Below, in pieces: positions 1,025 through 17,423 of a DNA stretch of 18,092 bases; the first letter of the stretch is position 1, and every line of letters starts with the position of its first letter. The DNA comes from an uncultured archaeon (lineage in GTDB: Archaea; Asgardarchaeota; Lokiarchaeia; Sigyniarchaeales; SOKP01), in assembly GCA_964583985.1 (NCBI GenBank), contig CAZOYD010000066.1:1-18092 (forward strand), given 5' to 3'. Both the position numbers and the translations under genes were made by a program. The notes under the pieces were generated by a model. It did not search any database, was not told the DNA's origin, and worked only from the letters and a program-made list of their open reading frames with translations.

Positions 1025-1120
1025 TTAAGATCATGAAAATCATATAAAGATGTTATTATATCCTATATAGCTTTTTAACATATATATTTCTTTATTCTAA
1101 TTGATCTATAGATAAAACTA

Positions 1121-1885
1121 TCATGAAAAATCTTTTTCAAGTTCATGAACGATAATCTCTGCGAGGTTAATCAACACCTTTCTTCTTAACTCCTCATCTT
1201 TAATTCTGATTTTATCCGAAAATTCGATTTGAATGGATTGGCTGTTTTTGATGTTATTTGCACCATATTTTTTAGTGATAAATCCACCGGTCAAAACATA
1301 TTCTTTTCTTAAATGGTGACCAGGAGCAATCTGAATACCAATTTTATTAAAACGTTTGATAATTTTACCGCGTACATTTTTGCCTTGTTCCTTTTTAGGC
1401 AAGGGTTCTGAAAATAATGTTTTTAAATTATTAGTCCCTAATATCAATTCAACATCTCTAAAACCATGAGGACGCCTGTTTGATTCGAATCCATGAATAT
1501 CGACCAATAATGACTTATTAAATTGTTCCAAATTAAGATAAATATATTCATTTAGCTTGGAATGATAATATTGATATATTTCATTAGCAAACATAGAAGT
1601 ACTCACAAAAGCTGTCAATTTTTCTCTATTCAAGTCTATGTTTTTCCTACTCACCAAAGAAAAAACATAACTCGGGATTTTAGCTTCATTATTATGCACT
1701 TCATATACTGATTTTATTTGTTCAATTAGCTCGACTGCAATTTCTATCGTATTTTTATCAATGCCACGAATACCACTTTTTCGTTCAGGTATTTCATCAA
1801 TGATGGTCTTCCCTCCATGAGGAACTGATAAAATTAATGGTAAATTTCCTCGATAACATTTGATATATTTCGCAAAATCATGCAT
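1121..1885 (-). CDS. N-formylglutamate amidohydrolase-like Zn-dependent hydrolase
   Basis: Motifs LILSVPHGG, D..T, SR..IDLNR, YH..L, LLVDIHG, LGT and SIQIE are typical of the FGase family. Confidence 0.75.
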   Translation of the reverse strand: MHDFAKYIKCYRGNLPLILSVPHGGKTIIDEIPERKSGIRGIDKNTIEIAVELIEQIKSVYEVHNNEAKIPSYVFSLVSRKNIDLNREKLTAFVSTSMFANEIYQYYHSKLNEYIYLNLEQFNKSLLVDIHGFESNRRPHGFRDVELILGTNNLKTLFSEPLPKKEQGKNVRGKIIKRFNKIGIQIAPGHHLRKEYVLTGGFITKKYGANNIKNSQSIQIEFSDKIRIKDEELRRKVLINLAEIIVHELEKDFS

Positions 1886-10804: not shown

Positions 10805-12463
10805 TTAATGGAATAAATAGAGAAATCGTTCCATGTAATATAAACAAACTTGATTGTAAACCCCCGTGAAATAATAATCCAGTACATGACCTGCGAATGG
10901 TAACAGAATACGTATGATATTAGGATTATTATATTGAAGGTACTTGTTTTTTAATGTCAATGAAATACTAGGATCAACGATACCATCACTACCTCCATGA
11001 ATCACGAGGCATGGAGGACTTGATTGATTGACCAAGAGTTCTGGTTGGACTAAATCTTCTGATCCCGGAATGCCGAGGATTGAAGTAGCAATTCCATTTG
11101 CAGGATATAATGGAACGATCCCTTTAATTGTTAGATCTTGACTAAAAAGTGAAGAATAAGAAGGATGATGATATGCAAAAGCCACAGCACATGCTAATTG
11201 TCCACCTGAAGATCCACCGGTGATAAATACCGAATCGAGATTTGCATTATAATCTTTTGAATAATTCGCCAAATATTTAGTAAATATTCCTATGTGCCTC
11301 ACCATATCGTCGATAGTAAAATCTCCCTTGACGTTTTCTGGAGTTATCATCCCAAAAGGCATTGAATTTCTTAAACCATACTGAATATCGAATACGACAT
11401 ATCCTTGAGCAGCGAAATATTTATTGTTTTGTATTTTATTTGTAAATCCTTTATCTGCTAAACTCCATCCTCCCCCGTGAATTGAGATTAAAACTGAATT
11501 ATTACCGGGCAAGTTGTTAGTAAGAGGTATATATGCATCATAATATAACTCAACTCCATCTCCCTCATAATATAAAACATCTTTTACGATTTCGCATTTT
11601 TTAGGAGATTCTCCTAACAAATATTTTGAAATCGAAAATGGGCTATCTAAGAAGAATGGCTGAGCCGTTTCAATTTTCTCATCCCAATCTGAACCAAAGG
11701 CATTTTCAAAATCAAAATTTGCTCGAATTATTGTAGAATTGATTGAGAATAATGGTAACAAACAAATAACAATCGTGAAAATTCCTATACTTGAAAAGAA
11801 AATCCTCCTGATTTTATCTGGTTTTGTTTTTATCAAGAAGAGAAAAAAAGCAAGAAAAGCAAAAAAAAGACCTAAAGACACTTGAGAGGCTGCAGCTAAC
11901 ACTCCAGCAGCATAATTCGAACTTCCATTTATTATTGAAAGTGAATAAAGAAACCCGATTATTAAAAATGTTTTGCAAGTGAAACTTCTTTTTTTTAACT
12001 GTCTTTTACTCATAGACTTTTTATATTTCAATTTTTTAACTCCTTGCATTGAAATCAACAGGTAATAATTGACTAGAAATCCACAAAAAGATAATGAAAA
12101 GAACCCAAAATAGCTCATAGTTGAATATAATGATACTTCAATTTGATAATAAGATGCCGAAATGAGGAAATTTCCTAAAAGCATCAATAAAGGAGACAAG
12201 ATCGTAAGAACGAGATATAACTCGCTTAACTTCCATATAAGATGTTTCTCTGATTCAAACCCAACGAAATATATAATGATTACATTATAAATCCAACTCA
12301 CGAGAACTAGGATTGCAAAAATGTCAAAAAGTTTAATTTCAAAAACCATCAATATGCAATATGAGATTTCAAATAAAAAAGCATAGATATTAAAGCAAAT
12401 TCCAAGAAAACTGAGTAATTTCAAGTTCTTTTCTTTTTTCAGAAATACTGAATGATTGAGCAT
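10805..12463 (-). CDS. Membrane-anchored alpha/beta hydrolase (HSL-like esterase/lipase) with multi-TM N-terminus
   Basis: IHGGGW oxyanion motif, GGSSGG nucleophile elbow, IHGGSDGIV Asp, AGH His; several N-terminal TM helices. Confidence 0.88.
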   Translation of the reverse strand: MLNHSVFLKKEKNLKLLSFLGICFNIYAFLFEISYCILMVFEIKLFDIFAILVLVSWIYNVIIIYFVGFESEKHLIWKLSELYLVLTILSPLLMLLGNFLISASYYQIEVSLYSTMSYFGFFSLSFCGFLVNYYLLISMQGVKKLKYKKSMSKRQLKKRSFTCKTFLIIGFLYSLSIINGSSNYAAGVLAAASQVSLGLFFAFLAFFLFLIKTKPDKIRRIFFSSIGIFTIVICLLPLFSINSTIIRANFDFENAFGSDWDEKIETAQPFFLDSPFSISKYLLGESPKKCEIVKDVLYYEGDGVELYYDAYIPLTNNLPGNNSVLISIHGGGWSLADKGFTNKIQNNKYFAAQGYVVFDIQYGLRNSMPFGMITPENVKGDFTIDDMVRHIGIFTKYLANYSKDYNANLDSVFITGGSSGGQLACAVAFAYHHPSYSSLFSQDLTIKGIVPLYPANGIATSILGIPGSEDLVQPELLVNQSSPPCLVIHGGSDGIVDPSISLTLKNKYLQYNNPNIIRILLPFAGHVLDYYFTGVYNQVCLYYMERFLYLFH

Positions 12464-12750: not shown

Positions 12751-12969
12751 TTAATCTGGATAATATAAAAACCCCCCTATAAATCTTGTTGACAGGTATT
12801 CATCAAAGAATTTGTTGCGTTGAAAAGAGTTGATAACATAACCATTTTAATTTTAAAATTGAATGAAATTCAGAATAAAATTAGCCAAAATCTAAATAAA
12901 AGTATAAAAAGTATAAAGAAAAAAAATAAAATTCTCGAAGGAAATTCACTTCCTGGATGAATTTATGGT

Positions 12970-13012
12970 TTAATCCACCATGTCTTCAAAAGCTTCAAGG
13001 ACTAACTCAATT
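12970..13012 (-). repeat. Direct repeat of the SCP2 3' exon (copy of 14205-14247)
   Basis: ttaatccaccatgtcttcaaaagcttcaagg(a/g)ctaactcaatt; 42/43 identical, 1235 bp apart. Confidence 0.95.
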
Positions 13013-13132
13013 CCCACATCTGGTTGTGACACTTTAGCAAAGCGGAGTCTGTGTCGTAATATCACCGAAGGATCCAGATTACATTACGGCACAATCGTAG
13101 CGGCGCGAGTTGCGTACAACCTGATGAAGTAA
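13013..13132. other. GC-rich (~48%) long imperfect hairpin; possible ncRNA, intron or element end
   Basis: Outer arms catctggttgt (13017-13027) / acaacctgatg (13116-13126). Inner arms tgtgtcgtaat (13050-13060) / attacggcaca (13083-13093). Confidence 0.65.
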
Positions 13133-13180
13133 AATGATTACAATTTTTAAAAATGATTTATATGCATGCGTGATTGAACC

Positions 13181-13274
13181 TAATTCTTCTGAACCCATGA
13201 TATCGAGAATTGAAGTAGCGATTCCATTTGCAGGATAAAATGGAATGATCCCTTTAATTGGCAATGCTTGACTA
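13181..13274 (-). pseudogene. Internal fragment of an alpha/beta hydrolase gene, homologous to 11051-11144
   Basis: Ungapped alignment 78/94 nt. Translates IKGIIPFYPANGIATSILDIMGSEEL versus IKGIVPLYPANGIATSILGIPGSEDL in the intact gene. Confidence 0.9.
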
Positions 13275-13775
13275 TTAGTGAATGTTTTCTTCATACTTTT
13301 TCAAATCAATAAAGAGAATAGAGTTATTCTTCCGATCTCGAAACCATTCAAATCCCATATTTACCTTTTCTAAGTAATAGTTTTTCATATCTAGAGTTGT
13401 TTCCACTAACAATAAGCGACACGCAATGATTTTACTTGCTTCTAATGATTTTTCTAAGGCGATTTTTATCAATGTATTTCCGAGGTTCTTATGTTTATAC
13501 TTTTTATCTACACCTAAGCGACCGAGAAGTACTATTGGTACTTTATCAATTCCAAATATACGTGCATCTCCTGTATTTAACTGGGAAGCAGAAAGTGTTA
13601 AAAAAGCAATTACAATATTAGAATCTTTCAAACAAAATACATATGTTTTTGAAAGCTTTCGTTCTTGATTGAGGAGAGCTAGATCAGTTAAAAAAGAGTT
13701 AATGACTCGTTCCCCACAGTCAAAAGATTCAATAATAGCGTCTTTATCTAATTGTTTAAAAAGTAAATCCGTCAA
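13275..13775 (-). CDS. GNAT-family toxin (AtaT/TacT-like acetyltransferase)
   Basis: SFDCGERVINSFL, SKTYV, PIVLLGRLGVDKKYKHKNLGNTLI, CRLLLVE are characteristic of GNAT toxins of type II TA systems; TTG start. Confidence 0.82.
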   Translation of the reverse strand: MTDLLFKQLDKDAIIESFDCGERVINSFLTDLALLNQERKLSKTYVFCLKDSNIVIAFLTLSASQLNTGDARIFGIDKVPIVLLGRLGVDKKYKHKNLGNTLIKIALEKSLEASKIIACRLLLVETTLDMKNYYLEKVNMGFEWFRDRKNNSILFIDLKKYEENIH

Positions 13776-13789
13776 TTGAAAAAGCCCTT

Positions 13790-14035
13790 TTATAATTTCT
13801 CAATTTCTTCTAATGATATTGTATATTCCTTCTCTTCCAAATTTTGATAGAACTGGTGTGAAGATTTAAAAAAAGAATGAGTTCTTTCATCAATTACTCG
13901 ATTTTCAAGTTTGTTTTCAAGATCTTGAATCTCGTGTTCGGTTAAAATGATCTCTTCAGAATCATCAAAGTAGAAGTTTTCTTCAGATATTTTCTCTTCT
14001 TTTTTCATTTGTTTTTCTTTTGGGGTTGTCATCAT
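13790..14035 (-). CDS. Putative acidic antitoxin upstream of the GNAT toxin
   Basis: 81 aa, very acidic, 14 nt upstream of the toxin. EEIILTEHEIQDLENKLEN resembles the toxin-binding C-terminal part of DUF1778 antitoxins. Confidence 0.6.
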   Translation of the reverse strand: MMTTPKEKQMKKEEKISEENFYFDDSEEIILTEHEIQDLENKLENRVIDERTHSFFKSSHQFYQNLEEKEYTISLEEIEKL

Positions 14036-14130
14036 AATATATATTGCAATATTCCTATAAATGATTTATTATCAGGACTCGATTATATCCATAATTCTAA
14101 AATTTTTTTTAGAATAAATAAATTTAAATT

Positions 14131-14169
14131 AAAAAAAAAAATTAAATATAAAAAATAGAATAAAAAAAA
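14131..14169 (-). terminator. Oligo-T tracts downstream of the reconstructed SCP2 stop
   Basis: A10 (14131-14140) and A8 (14162-14169) runs on + are T runs on the minus strand, starting ~35 nt after TAA at 14205. Confidence 0.45.
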
Positions 14170-14204
14170 GTAAAGATAATTAACGATATGGATATATTAT
14201 TGAC

Positions 14205-14692
14205 TTAATCCACCATGTCTTCAAAAGCTTCAAGGGCTAACTCAATTTAAGAGGTTTGAGGGATTTCCTCAAATTTTATCTCTTGGAAAGCCATTGCGTC
14301 TTGAAGATTACCTTCTACTGTAATATCACCAGCCATATAGGCACTTGTGGCGTTTTAGCGCTGTTTAGAATTTAAACTAGCTCAACTTCGCCAAACAACA
14401 TGCCTGCACCAACTTCTTGGGTTGCGGAAAATGTGAAAGATGGATTGTCAACAACACCTTCTCCGAATTCAAGAGTGCCATCATGAGCTTTTAGCCAAAA
14501 TTTAGCGTCTTTATCGGTTATGATCATTTGAATAACGATATCCATGTCTTCTAATTCTTCTTTGAGGTCTTCGTTTTCTTCAGCAATTTGCTTGAATAGT
14601 TCGAATACTTTTAAAGAATCAGCAGGTGATGCTGCTGCTGCTCCAGCGTCAAACTTTCCTTTCATTTCATTAATTAATGCTTCGTCAACCAT
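14205..14692 (-). CDS. SCP2 sterol/lipid-carrier protein, 142 aa after removal of two BHB introns (exons 14692-14383, 14353-14277, 14246-14205)
   Basis: Exons 310+77+42 = 429 nt give MVDEAL...FGEGVVDNPSFTFSATQEVGAGMLFGEVDATSAYMAGDITVEGNLQDAMAFQEIIELALEAFEDMVD*. This includes the SCP2 C-terminal signature G.xD...AxMxGxIxVxG that is missing from the listed 110-aa ORF. Confidence 0.88.
14247..14276 (-). other. 30-nt BHB-type intron 2 in the SCP2 mRNA
   Basis: CAA-GAGA-TA^A-aaTTTGAGG aaatc CCTCAAAcc-TCTT-AA^A-TTG; removal gives GAG ATA ATT GAG (E-I-I-E) and deletes an in-frame TAA. Confidence 0.85.
14354..14382 (-). other. 29-nt BHB-type intron 1 in the SCP2 mRNA
   Basis: TGGCG-AAGT-TG^A-GCTAGTTTA aattc TAAACAGC-GCTA-AA^A-CGCCA; removal gives GTT GAC GCC (V-D-A). 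Confidence 0.82.
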
Positions 14693-15121
14693 TTTGATTT
14701 TCAACCTTCTTTTATAGTTTTGTACTTATTTTGATTGTTAGGTTATAATAAATACTATTAAGTATAACTTTTTACTATATAAAAAGATTATATTTCTTCT
14801 TATATAATATAGTAAAATTGGAATGCATTACTTTTTTAAATTACTATTTTTTTCGTCGGTAATAGAAAAGTTTTAGAGGGAGAAACATGATAAATATCTT
14901 GATAAGGGTAAAAACTTAAAAAGTTGTTTTCAAAAATGTAAATGCATTAACAACTTTAAATATACGTGAAGAGATGAAGGATTTTTCTTGCGTGTATTAC
15001 TTAAACCATAAAAATAAAAGCATTTAATCAATGAGAATAATAAAACTTTGCTTTAAAATAAATTAATACACTCCTATCATATTTTAATTCAGAATCATTG
15101 CTTTTCTGGGTGTTTTGACAA

Positions 15122-16276
15122 ATGATAAAGAAGAACAGAAAAGATTATTTAGAAATCAAGAATGAATTGAAGATTTATTTTGATAAAATTTTTGATAATT
15201 ACCCTGATATACCAGAGAACCTTCCTAGCTTAAGAAATATAGGTAATATGTTCAAAGTCGCAAGAAACTTTGTAAAGAAGTATCTCTTAAGTGAATATAT
15301 TTCATTGCACTTTGATGAAGATCCTTCTGAATTATACTCCCGTTACTGGCCAAAAACGCGTTCTGAAAAAATAGATGAGATTCATGATAAACTAATTGAA
15401 GAATTTAGTTATCAATTTAATAGGTATTATCCCAATGAAATAGAATGTATTTCTACAATAGGGCAATTATCTAAAAAATATGGAGTTGGATTTATTTCTA
15501 TCAAAGTATGGCTAATGGATTATATTAAAGAAATATTTGAAATTAATATCGCTGAAAAGATATATACTGAAATCTTTCCAACATTATCATCACAATCACC
15601 TTCTTATACTGATATCAAATGCCTTATTGAGAGCAGACAAGGTCAGTTGTTAACATGTGAAACTGACTGGAATAATATGAAAGAACAGCCTACAAAAAGA
15701 TATATTGACATAAAATGCAAATTTGGGCACAATTGGAGCCCTACCATTAACGGTTTATTATATGATAATCGATGGTGTCCAACTTGTAATGAAAGTAAAG
15801 GAGAACAGTTAACACGAATGTATATGGAGGCAATCTTTTCAAAGATTTCTGGGAATCCTATAAAATTTCCAACTGTTACACTTTATAATGCATTTCATAT
15901 TGATGTTAATAGAGGAGGAAGGATGCATTTTGACGGATATAATCCAAATGTAAAAATAAGGAAAAAATTTTTCAGAATTGCTTTTGAATATGATGGAAAA
16001 CAGCATGATACATACCCAAATTCAATCCATAGAAAATTTTCAGAATTTCAAGAACTGCAGAAAAGGGATAAGTTAAAAGAAACTATATGTAATCTACTTA
16101 AATTTAAAACAATCTTAATTAGAATTAAAGAAATCTTGGGTTTTAATTGTTCTAATCCTCAAAGTTTTCAAACTGAAATTATTCGACAATTTCAAAAAAA
16201 CACGGGAATAAAGATTTCTAATTTGCCTATGCTGGAGTATAATATACTTGAAAATAATTTAAATAGAAAAAAGTAA
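15122..16276 (+). CDS. Putative free-standing endonuclease: two N-terminal HTH-like repeats, Zn ribbon, Vsr/DUF559-like nuclease domain
   Basis: KCKFGHNW...WCPTC Zn ribbon; ESKGE, FDGY, IAFEYDGKQH, QKRDKLKETIC, LIRI nuclease-type motifs. Confidence 0.75.
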   Translation: MIKKNRKDYLEIKNELKIYFDKIFDNYPDIPENLPSLRNIGNMFKVARNFVKKYLLSEYISLHFDEDPSELYSRYWPKTRSEKIDEIHDKLIEEFSYQFNRYYPNEIECISTIGQLSKKYGVGFISIKVWLMDYIKEIFEINIAEKIYTEIFPTLSSQSPSYTDIKCLIESRQGQLLTCETDWNNMKEQPTKRYIDIKCKFGHNWSPTINGLLYDNRWCPTCNESKGEQLTRMYMEAIFSKISGNPIKFPTVTLYNAFHIDVNRGGRMHFDGYNPNVKIRKKFFRIAFEYDGKQHDTYPNSIHRKFSEFQELQKRDKLKETICNLLKFKTILIRIKEILGFNCSNPQSFQTEIIRQFQKNTGIKISNLPMLEYNILENNLNRKK

Positions 16277-16372
16277 ACAGATAAAAAATAGTACCCATAA
16301 TTCTAATATTAAGTGATTAGAAACATTATACCCTCCTCTTATATAAATTCCAGAAATTTTTATTTCTAGAAT

Positions 16373-17245
16373 ATGCTTGAAAAAAGTGAGTCTCTTGCTG
16401 AGATGTTAGGGATAATCCTTGGAGATGGTCGTCTGAGATGGGATCCCACAGGAAGGCATTATCAATTGGATGTCATTCTAAATTGGGTTGAAGAAAAAGA
16501 TTATGTCCTTTATGTTAATGATCTTATGATGAGATTATTCCAATATAAACCTAAATTATCAAGGCAAATAAATGAGGATGGTTCAATAGGAAAGGGTATA
16601 TATCTTACTATTTATAGCAAAAAACTAGTCTATGAACTAATATCCTTAGGTTTAATACCTGGAAATAAAGTAGAGAACCAAATCAAAGTCCCAAAATGGA
16701 TTAAGGAATGCAAATCCTATATGATAGCGTGTTTAAAAGGACTATTTGATACTGATGGTTCCATATTTCCTGTCATAAAAGAAGGTGCAATTAAAATGAA
16801 TTTTAAAAATGGATCTCTATCTTTAGTTGAAGATTTCAAAGAAATGACAGAATTATTTGAAATCAAGACATCAAAAATATCTTCTTACTCTGAGATTACG
16901 GAAAAAACAAATGAATTCTCAATTACCTTTATTTTACAGATCCAAGCAAGAAACCAAGTGAAAAAGTTCCTAGATATTATAAATCCTATGAAATGGGAAT
17001 ATCGAAAAGAATATTTATTAAAAATAATAACGAATCCTTTTGATTATACTATGGAATATTATTCTGATAGTGATATTGAAAATTGGATATTACTTTATGA
17101 AAAATTTAAATCTTATAGGCTAGTTAGTGAATGCATATTGAAAGAACAAGGAAAATCTCCGAAAATTGATACAATACGATTACGAATAAAAAAATATTTT
17201 GGTGAGAAATATGAAAAATGGCTAAAAGATGTTAAAAGTATGTAA
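16373..17245 (+). CDS. Free-standing two-motif LAGLIDADG homing-endonuclease-like protein
   Basis: LAEMLGIILGDG and ACLKGLFDTDG motifs, with GL.PGNK...IKVPKWI between them. No intein splicing blocks. Stop lies 17 nt from the tRNA 3' end. Confidence 0.88.
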   Translation: MLEKSESLAEMLGIILGDGRLRWDPTGRHYQLDVILNWVEEKDYVLYVNDLMMRLFQYKPKLSRQINEDGSIGKGIYLTIYSKKLVYELISLGLIPGNKVENQIKVPKWIKECKSYMIACLKGLFDTDGSIFPVIKEGAIKMNFKNGSLSLVEDFKEMTELFEIKTSKISSYSEITEKTNEFSITFILQIQARNQVKKFLDIINPMKWEYRKEYLLKIITNPFDYTMEYYSDSDIENWILLYEKFKSYRLVSECILKEQGKSPKIDTIRLRIKKYFGEKYEKWLKDVKSM

Positions 17246-17279
17246 TTGAATTGATAAGTGATTGGCGCCCACACCGGGA

Positions 17280-17309
17280 ATTTCATCGCGTATGGTTTTC
17301 ATACGCGGA
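17280..17309 (-). other. tRNA intron at position 59/60 (T-loop), near-canonical BHB
   Basis: CCGGG-TTCA-AA^T-cCGCGTATG aaaac CATACGCGa-TGAA-AT^T-CCCGG; splicing restores TTCAAAT. Confidence 0.9.
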
Positions 17310-17355
17310 TTTGAACCCGGGTCGCAGGAGTGACAGTCCCGAATGCTGGACCGGA

Positions 17356-17385
17356 TTATGCGTGAGGTTTGAAGCAATCCTTACT
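17356..17385 (-). other. tRNA intron at position 15/16 (D-loop), relaxed BHB
   Basis: GTGT-AG^A-GTAAGG attgcttcaaa CCTCAC-GCAT-AA^T; central helix GTGT/GCAT; no clear outer helix. Confidence 0.8.
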
Positions 17386-17423
17386 CTACACTATGTGGGC
17401 AAAATGTTTTTAAATACTAAAAG

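What the first reader, a model, noticed from the sequence alone, without database searches (positions are those of the whole stretch)
14247..14276. SCP2 intron 2: 30-nt in-frame insert ending in TAA, with a full 4-bp central helix
Seen: outer CAA/TTG, central GAGA/TCTT (4 pairs including one G-U), bulges TA^A and AA^A, 7-bp inner stem TTTGAGG/CCTCAAA. Unspliced it reads KFEEIPQTS* and drops the last 13 residues; spliced it gives FQEIIELALEAFEDMVD*. Inference: retaining only this intron would give an alternative C-terminus, so three isoforms are possible from one archaeal gene.
Basis: partly seen in the sequence, partly recalled or inferred. Interest (0 to 1): 0.85.

Follow-up and report, generated by a model that had tools for sequence, protein, structure and literature searches.

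The report
tRNA-type mini-intron in Asgard SCP2 mRNA
A 30-base hairpin that interrupts the last helix of a lipid-carrier (SCP2) gene in an Asgard archaeon is very probably an intron cut out of the messenger RNA by the tRNA-splicing enzymes, but I found no support for the suggested extra protein isoform.

Summary
On the minus strand, 14276..14247 is a 30-nt insert between codons I129 and I130 of an SCP2 gene.

Removing it, together with the 29-nt insert at 14382..14354, gives a 142-aa protein. This protein is identical to the product of an intronless gene in a sister species (39 nt differences, all synonymous).

The same site holds a near-identical insert in one relative. In two others it holds an unrelated 30-nt hairpin with the same bulge-helix-bulge (BHB) geometry. 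Among 132 related copies there are at least six insert sites within 80 nt.

The genome is a Promethearchaeota (Asgard) MAG. It encodes a catalytic and a non-catalytic EndA paralog and RtcB. Its RNase HII and uL11 genes carry similar inserts.

Best reading (0.85): an EndA/RtcB-spliced mRNA mini-intron with a relaxed 5' site. There is no RNA evidence.

The three-isoform idea is arithmetically correct but unsupported. The retained-intron tail is not conserved (relatives stop at once), and exon 3 encodes near-invariant residues of the terminal helix.

The papers I could search report such coding-sequence introns only for cbf5. Unchecked notes of this scan record many similar cases on other Asgard DNA.

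The parts
14383..14692 (-). SCP2 exon 1 (ATG at 14692; ends with G, the first base of the split Asp codon)
   Evidence: Pfam SCP2 match. Aligns to residues 1-104 of 130+ homologs.
14354..14382 (-). Intron 1: 29 nt, phase 1, contains a TAA; BHB with outer helix TGGCG/CGCCA
   Evidence: The same site is occupied in L055 with two compensatory stem changes. It splits the codon G|AC.
14277..14353 (-). SCP2 exon 2 (77 nt; ...DATSAYMAGDITVEGNLQDAMAFQEI)
   Evidence: Collinear with intronless orthologs.
14247..14276 (-). Intron 2, the finding: 30 nt, phase 0, ends in TAA; cuts shifted by -1 or +1 nt give the same product
   Evidence: The site is shared with L003, L008 and L055.
14243..14285 (-). Whole BHB-like motif: h CAA/UUG, H GAGA/UCUU, bulges UA^A and AA^A, 2x2 AA/CC mismatch, 7-bp stem with a 5-nt loop
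   Evidence: Read directly from the sequence. Register scoring; constrained fold.
14205..14246 (-). SCP2 exon 3 (IELALEAFEDMVD plus TAA)
   Evidence: Identical in protein to P0002/L021. Its residues are invariant in alignment A1.
12970..13011 (-). Relic copy of exon 3 (41/42 identical; the single mismatch turns invariant Ala133 into Val), followed by the ancestral 3' flank
   Evidence: Its downstream flank matches the sequence downstream of the SCP2 stop codon in L002, L003, L021 and L032.

Best explanation
The 30 nt at 14276..14247 are an archaeal bulge-helix-bulge (tRNA-type) mini-intron inside the coding sequence of an SCP2 gene of a Promethearchaeota (Asgard) archaeon.

Inferred mechanism:
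1. In the pre-mRNA, the exon bases CAA-GAGA pair with the intron bases UCUU and the 3'-exon bases UUG. This presents two 3-nt bulges four base pairs apart on opposite strands.
2. The heteromeric splicing endonuclease (a catalytic EndA subunit plus a non-catalytic paralog) cuts after the second base of each bulge (UA^A and AA^A).
3. RtcB joins ...GAG AUA to AUU GAG....
4. The mRNA, once the 29-nt intron 1 is also removed, encodes the full 142-aa protein with an intact C-terminal helix.

Shown here: the insert, its geometry, its absence from orthologs, exact restoration of a protein that really exists, conservation of the downstream exons, and the presence of the enzymes. Not shown: cleavage and ligation themselves.

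At the DNA level the intron appears to spread with its flanking exon sequence by recombination between lineages and paralogs.
For: 1. Junction. Intronless relatives read ...AMAFQEI|IELALEAF... without a break. The window's doubly excised product is 142/142 identical to P0002, which is encoded by an intronless gene (L021, L148-L153). That gene differs at 39 nt, all synonymous, 12 of them downstream of intron 1.

2. Same site, different introns.
- L003 carries a 28/30-identical insert; both differences lie at unpaired positions.
- L008 and L055 carry an unrelated 30-nt hairpin with central helix GAG(A)/(A)CUC, outer helix UUCAA/UUGAA and bulges UA^U and AC^A.
- Their excised products equal the proteins of intronless genes that are 62 and 26 nt away, with 0 amino-acid changes. 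Exon 3 alone shows 7 nt changes and 0 amino-acid changes.

3. A general rule. All 11 inserts in this family, at sites nt 310, 327, 349, 370, 384 and 387, have 3-4 of 4 central-helix pairs at the junction defined by homology, with cuts after the second bulge base. Several split codons: G|AC in the window and L055, GA|G and A|TG or AT|G in relatives.

4. Exon co-variation. The window and L003 share A381 and G384, both partners in the h and H helices. Their four closest intronless relatives have G and A there.

5. Machinery. The genome has two EndA paralogs at 28% identity; one of them lacks the catalytic Tyr and His. It also has RtcB. Asgard EndA is reported as the (alpha-beta)2 type with the loop that confers relaxed BHB specificity (PMC5829648).

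6. Same genome. The sole RNase HII match in this genome has a canonical 30-nt BHB insert inside its DEAGR|GP motif, and the uL11 N-terminus is split.

7. Chance. Shuffle test P about 2e-4.

8. Stability. The allele was assembled identically in at least 5 metagenomes.
Against: - There is no RNA evidence. No spliced transcript of this allele exists in the protein/contig collection: all six contigs encoding P0002 carry L021-type DNA.
- The 5' cut site is relaxed (loop UAAAA opposite CC) rather than a closed 3-nt bulge.
- The BHB register is not the minimum-energy fold (-5.7 versus -9.5 kcal/mol), and the local fold is no more stable than shuffles (z = -1.4).
- Exon 3 of the window is identical in nucleotides to L021, so it carries no selection signal of its own. 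That signal comes from L008, L055 and L003.
- How splicing would precede coupled translation is unknown.
Confidence: 0.85

Rival explanations
1. One reading: intron 2 is spliced only partly or conditionally, and the retained form makes a functional 138-aa isoform with the tail KFEEIPQTS. One gene would then yield three proteins.
For: The insert is in frame and, in this allele, open for 9 codons. Its 5' site is the weakest BHB element in the gene, so incomplete splicing is conceivable.
Against: The tail is not conserved. L003, L008 and L055 stop immediately after QEI, and L143/L144 stop after QEC. The isoform would cut the terminal helix in half and lose seven invariant residues. Insert lengths and phases across the family show no preference for in-frame inserts.
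Confidence: 0.06
2. The insert is a scar or a small mobile insertion in a decaying gene, with SCP2 function supplied by paralogs. The BHB-like shape would be incidental.
For: The genome has other SCP2 paralogs. The locus has suffered other insertions: a 1.2-kb segment with an exon-3 duplicate and a 2.3-kb endonuclease segment. No spliced RNA has been seen.
Against: There are no amino-acid changes against intronless sister genes across 26-62 synonymous differences, including the exons downstream of in-frame stops. Independent hairpins sit at the same site in three lineages. BHB-rule cuts restore the frame exactly at all six sites. Exon bases that pair with the intron co-vary with its presence. 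RNase HII and uL11, each found only once in this genome, carry the same kind of insert.
Confidence: 0.04
3. Programmed translational bypassing, as in phage T4 gene 60 or the mitochondrial 'byps' elements. The ribosome would take off at AUA, hop over the hairpin and resume, with no RNA processing.
For: The insert is short, hairpin-forming and phase 0. A stop follows the take-off codon directly in L003, L008 and L055.
Against: Sister inserts in the same gene and family split codons (G|AC here; GA|G and A|TG or AT|G in relatives). These can only be restored by joining nucleic acid. There is no matching landing codon in front of AUU GAG. The cut positions follow the EndA rule at all six sites. tRNA-Asp in the same window carries a ~30-nt insert, which cannot involve ribosomes.
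Confidence: 0.02

Closest known systems
BHB intron in the cbf5 (pseudouridine synthase) pre-mRNA of Desulfurococcales and Sulfolobales (Watanabe 2002; Yoshinari 2006; Yokobori 2009, PMC2738675)
   Same: A short intron inside an archaeal coding sequence, with an unconventional (relaxed) BHB. Cuts are predicted between the 2nd and 3rd bulge bases. It is linked to a hetero-oligomeric EndA and shows lineage-specific gain and loss.
   Different: A different phylum (Asgard) and a different gene. There are two introns in one gene and at least six sites in the gene family. All inserts are 29-34 nt. The cbf5 gene of this genome is itself uninterrupted. Splicing is not demonstrated here.
Non-canonical, multiple tRNA introns of Asgard archaea (PMC11291895; bioRxiv 10.64898/2026.10.13.758758)
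   Same: The same host group, the same motif and presumably the same enzymes. Gains recur at sites where the exons can supply half of the motif. The tRNA-Asp gene 2.5 kb away in this window carries a ~30-nt insert in its T-arm.
   Different: The host RNA here is an mRNA, so the outer helix has to be made from codons, and retention has translational consequences. Those papers treat tRNA genes only.
BHB intron in the 5' UTR of Haloferax volcanii HVO_1309 (PMC7714728)
   Same: An EndA substrate inside an mRNA.
   Different: It lies in the UTR, not the coding sequence. It is 46 nt long, and its cleavage has been shown experimentally.
Translational bypass elements (T4 gene 60; mitochondrial byps)
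   Same: Short hairpin inserts in coding sequence that are absent from the protein.
   Different: These need matched take-off and landing codons and cannot repair split codons. The inserts in this gene family split codons and obey the BHB cut rule.

Membership tests
Archaeal BHB intron, relaxed form (hBH / HBh' as accepted by (alpha-beta)2 EndA) | A 4-bp central helix with a 3-nt bulge 3' of each strand; at least one bulge is flanked by helices on both sides | tested here: met
   H = GAGA/UCUU (4 pairs, one G.U). The 3' bulge AAA lies between H and h (CAA/UUG). The 5' cut site UAA follows H directly.
Archaeal BHB intron, strict hBHBh' form | Both 3-nt bulges are closed by helices, with the inner helix h' directly adjacent to the 5' bulge | tested here: not met
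   A 2x2 AA/CC mismatch separates the 5' bulge from the 7-bp stem (hi = 0). In L008/L055 an extra base and an A.A mismatch give a comparable relaxation.
Archaeal BHB intron | Cutting after the 2nd base of each bulge yields the exact functional junction | tested here: met
   The junction GAG AUA|AUU GAG gives a protein 142/142 identical to P0002. The same rule holds for 11 inserts at 6 sites.
Archaeal BHB intron | The host encodes the splicing endonuclease and the RtcB ligase | tested here: met
   Two EndA paralogs have both Pfam domains, and one lacks the catalytic Tyr and His. RtcB matches at 557 bits.
Archaeal BHB intron | The intron is excised from RNA and the exons are ligated (spliced transcript, circular intron) | not testable with these tools
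   No transcript data could be reached. A look-up of the spliced product found only intronless genomic alleles.
Archaeal BHB intron | The insert is absent from orthologs while the flanking exons stay under purifying selection | tested here: met
Translational bypass element | Matched take-off and landing codons, and inserts that never split codons | tested here: not met
   There is no AUA-like landing codon before AUU GAG. Intron 1 and inserts in relatives split codons.
SCP2 sterol-transfer fold (host gene) | Pfam PF02036 match and an alpha/beta fold ending in a long C-terminal helix | tested here: met
   PF02036 matches exon 1. There are PDB relatives 3cnu and 3bn8. The AlphaFold model has pLDDT 95.3 with helix 120-141.

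The most novel reading that the evidence does not exclude
BHB mini-introns may be mobile at the DNA level. On this reading, intron 2 moves between species and between tandem SCP2 paralogs by gene conversion, carrying along the exon bases that form its splice helices. This is what the sharp L008/L055 mosaic suggests: 64 differences in nt 1-330, then 1 difference in the last 99 nt plus an identical intron (Fisher P = 3e-7). The weaker window/L003 pattern points the same way. The lineage-specific free-standing LAGLIDADG and nuclease genes 430 nt upstream of SCP2 may drive such conversion. The exon-3 duplicate runs exactly from the 3' splice site to the stop codon and could record a related rearrangement.
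Probability: 0.25. Interest if true: 0.75.

Novelty: new member of a known kind. Interest (0 to 1): 0.6.

Why it matters
In the papers I could search, EndA-type splicing inside an archaeal coding sequence is documented for one gene only: cbf5, in Crenarchaeota.

This locus is an Asgard gene that needs two such excisions. It comes with unusually clean natural controls:
- Intronless sister genes encode exactly the predicted spliced protein.
- Unrelated hairpins occupy the same site in other lineages.
- Six sites lie within 80 nt across the gene family.

This makes three questions testable in the closest prokaryotic relatives of eukaryotes. Are protein-coding messages routinely cut and rejoined? 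How is that reconciled with coupled transcription and translation? How do such introns arrive and spread?

There is also a practical consequence. Gene callers truncate these genes: this one is on record as a 106-aa protein on 8 contigs.

Tried and rejected
- Rfam found nothing at gathering thresholds in the window and only chance-level matches at E up to 10 in 12800-14800. ARAGORN found no tRNA in the raw window.
- The intron sequence is not a repeat family in the genome: blastn-short found only chance matches of 15 nt or less.
- I ran a de novo genome-wide scan for BHB plus ORF-joining, with a mirror-geometry control. It gave no excess at any threshold (for example 2343 versus 2293, and 227 versus 199). 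The scan is uninformative, because adjacent genes swamp it. It is not evidence against more introns.
- Direct RNA evidence was not found. The exact spliced protein (P0002) occurs on 6 contigs, all with L021-type DNA and genomic flanks. P0024 and P0073 sit on a single intronless genomic contig.
- Unconstrained folding does not single out the BHB.
- I tested pairing the intron-2 5' site with the exon-3 relic at 13011 as an alternative 3' splice site. The bases upstream of the relic (GUGG, then GA^A) cannot pair with GAGA, so I rejected it (by inspection).
- The 'GC-rich hairpin' upstream of the relic folds no better than shuffles (z = -1.4).
- NCBIfam gave no name for the 81-aa, 166-aa, 71-aa or 384-aa ORFs. 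The GNAT match of the 166-aa ORF is below Pfam's cut-off, so 'toxin-antitoxin module' remains a guess.
- P0120, a 130-aa truncated homolog, could not be fetched.

Full report
**What is there**

The window is AT-rich (the genome is 31.7% GC). It belongs to a 3.8-Mb Promethearchaeota (Asgard, Loki-type) MAG: neighbouring genes find 73-87% identical relatives in records titled Promethearchaeota or Promethearchaeia.

An SCP2 gene runs on the minus strand from 14692. Its open frame stops at ...GEVELV*. The rest of the protein lies downstream in two pieces.

The finding's coordinates are exact: 14276..14247 is a 30-nt in-frame insert ending in TAA.

I add two qualifications.
- The 5' bulge is separated from the 7-bp stem by an AA/CC mismatch, so this is a relaxed BHB, not a strict one.
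- Because of flanking A residues, cuts shifted by one base in either direction give the same product. The minimum-energy fold uses a slipped AAGAG/CUCUU helix (-9.5 kcal/mol) rather than the BHB-constrained fold (-5.7 kcal/mol).

A shuffle test gives P about 2e-4 for a full central helix together with a 7-bp stem.

**Comparative test of the junction**

I searched 40 related genomes and the JGI metagenome contigs and collected 132 usable copies of this gene family.

All but about a dozen are uninterrupted and read ...GEVDATSAYMAGDITVEGNLQDAMAFQEIIELA[LI]EA....

Excising the 29-nt insert (14382..14354) and the 30-nt insert from the window gives a 142-aa protein. That protein is identical, 142 of 142, to P0002. 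P0002 is the product of an intronless gene found on six metagenome contigs (L021, L148-L153). That gene differs from the window's exons at 39 nucleotides, all synonymous, and 12 of them lie downstream of the first in-frame stop.

The intron-bearing allele itself was assembled identically in at least five metagenomes. One of these is a sample that also contains the intronless sister gene.

**The same site in other lineages**

- L003 (genome G022) has a 28/30-identical insert at the same I|I junction. Both differences fall at unpaired positions.
- L008 (G023) and L055 (a metagenome contig) carry an unrelated 30-nt hairpin at the same junction. Its central helix is GAG(A)/(A)CUC, its outer helix is the 5-bp UUCAA/UUGAA, and its bulges are UA^U and AC^A.
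- Their excised products equal the proteins of two intronless tandem genes on contig L147. These genes are 62 and 26 nucleotide differences away, with no amino-acid change. Within exon 3 alone there are 7 nucleotide differences and no amino-acid change.

So exon 3 is kept under purifying selection in genes whose frame, read unspliced, stops before reaching it.

**A hot spot of mini-introns**

Other family members carry 29-34-nt hairpin inserts at these positions of the spliced CDS:
- nt 310 (the window and L055; the two are 23/29 identical and show two compensatory stem changes);
- nt 327 (L008);
- nt 349 and 370 (L051-L053);
- nt 370 (L067);
- nt 384 (L084 and L143/L144, with unrelated sequences that both end in CUUGAA).

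At all 11 inserts, the junction fixed by homology coincides with a register in which 3-4 of the 4 central-helix pairs form and the cuts fall after the second base of each bulge. Several inserts split codons (G|AC, GA|G, and A|TG or AT|G). That excludes ribosomal bypassing and requires nucleic acid to be joined.

On a tree of the spliced coding sequences, the insert-bearing genes fall into at least five separate clades.

**Exon-intron co-variation and spread**

Within the window's own clade, the two intron-2 bearers (the window and L003) share A381 and G384. These exon bases pair with the 3' exon and the intron. The four intronless relatives have G and A at those positions.

The window-specific synonymous states T300, C303 and C315 all create Watson-Crick pairs in the outer helix of intron 1.

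L008 and L055 differ at 64 of the first 330 nt. They differ at only 1 of the last 99 nt and at none of the 30 intron bases (Fisher P = 3e-7). The 3' third of the gene, with intron 2, was therefore exchanged by recombination.

L003 shows a weaker pattern of the same kind (P = 0.04). This is suggestive evidence that the intron travels at the DNA level together with its flanks.

**Machinery and genomic context**

The genome encodes two EndA paralogs, each with both Pfam domains and 28% identical to each other. One keeps the Tyr, His and Lys positions. The other has Phe and Tyr in place of the catalytic Tyr and His. That is the expected pattern for an alpha-beta pair. RtcB is also present.

Asgard EndA is reported as the (alpha-beta)2 type, with the loop that permits relaxed BHB substrates (PMC5829648). 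mRNA splicing in Crenarchaeota was linked to this enzyme type (references cited in PMC2738675).

In the same genome:
- The sole RNase HII match in this genome has a 30-nt insert with an in-frame TAA between DEAGR and GP. Its BHB has a full central helix (UGGU/GUUG) and a 9-bp inner stem closing the 5' bulge, but only 1 outer-helix pair; the bulges are AG^A and AC^A.
- The uL11 N-terminus is found in four separate pieces.
- The cbf5 gene is uninterrupted.

**The isoform claim**

Three protein products are possible on paper: 106, 138 and 142 aa. Nothing supports a function for the 138-aa form.
- Its tail is specific to this allele. Relatives with an insert at this site stop immediately after QEI.
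- Exon 3 encodes invariant residues.
- Exon 3 forms the second half of the terminal helix 120-141 in a confident model (pLDDT 95.3). The intron site lies in the middle of that helix.

**Comparison with what is known, and novelty**

The closest published case is the cbf5 intron of Crenarchaeota.
- PMC2738675 states that no other archaeal pre-mRNA splicing had been confirmed.
- PMC7714728 (2020) still lists cbf5 as the only coding-sequence case and adds a 5' UTR intron in Haloferax.
- Work on Asgard archaea treats tRNA introns only (PMC11291895; bioRxiv 10.64898/2026.10.13.758758).
- My literature searches found no report of BHB introns in Asgard coding sequences.

Notes from this scan record many similar candidates in other Asgard genomes and several in this one. 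I re-tested those for this gene, for RNase HII and, in part, for uL11.

I therefore class this as a new member of a known kind of element (a BHB intron in an mRNA). It belongs to a lineage-wide phenomenon that appears to be unpublished.

**Limits**

No transcript evidence was obtainable. The 5' site is non-canonical. My de novo genome scan could not separate signal from noise.

Noticed in passing
window 12970-14204: There is a 1,235-nt lineage-specific insertion. Exon 3 is duplicated (12970-13011, 41/42 identical), running exactly from the 3' splice site to the stop codon. The relic copy keeps the ancestral downstream flank, and its one mismatch changes invariant Ala133 to Val. Between the two copies lie an 81-aa ORF, a 166-aa weakly GNAT-like ORF, a 71-aa ORF and a GC-richer stretch. 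The insertion is absent from L002, L003, L021, L022 and L032. Why its boundary coincides with the splice site is unexplained.
   Followed up: partly
window 13180-13274 versus 11050-11144: Inside that insertion, 95 nt are 83% identical to part of the 3' region of the downstream 552-aa BD-FAE esterase gene (10805-12463). The inserted segment therefore carries a fragment of an esterase homolog.
   Followed up: partly
window 14975-17310: The 384-aa ORF (15122-16276, no family match) and the LAGLIDADG ORF (16373-17245) form a ~2.3-kb block between tRNA-Asp and SCP2. In L021, L022, L032 and L003 a gap of about 90 nt takes its place. Free-standing endonuclease genes next to two intron-bearing genes may be relevant to intron spread.
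   Followed up: partly
window 17263-17400 (minus strand): tRNA-Asp(GTC) is invisible to ARAGORN in the raw sequence. It is found once about 30 nt are removed from the T-arm. A second ~30-nt insert appears to sit in the D-arm. L021 aligns to this region with 30 nt fewer.
   Followed up: partly
G000 C1:127200-127829 (minus strand), locus L145: The only RNase HII match in this genome has a 30-nt insert with an in-frame TAA inside its catalytic DEAGR|GP motif. Its BHB has a full central helix UGGU/GUUG, a 9-bp inner stem and bulges AG^A and AC^A, but only 1 outer-helix pair.
   Followed up: yes
G000 C27:35600-36000 (minus strand), locus L146: The uL11 N-terminal domain lies in four pieces (ALVTGG / KASGGPP / GPAVGPTG / LGAYIKDVV...), separated by three short AT-rich inserts.
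   Followed up: partly
L003 about 1110-1160 (minus strand), roughly 170 nt downstream of its SCP2 stop: There is an intronless fragment reading ...MAFQEIIELA... (ATGGCTTTCCAAGAGATAATCGAGCTCGC). It looks like the remnant of a second, tandem SCP2 copy.
   Followed up: no
L008 versus L055 (SCP2 coding sequences): The two genes form a sharp mosaic. They are 19% divergent up to nt ~325 and then nearly identical to the stop codon, including an identical intron 2. The breakpoint lies next to L008's own intron at nt 327.
   Followed up: partly
G000 C2:3-260 (minus strand), locus L156: Domain 3 of EF-1alpha matches only profile positions 9-90 and lies at a contig edge. This is consistent with, but does not show, the C-terminal interruption noted by another reader.
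   Followed up: no
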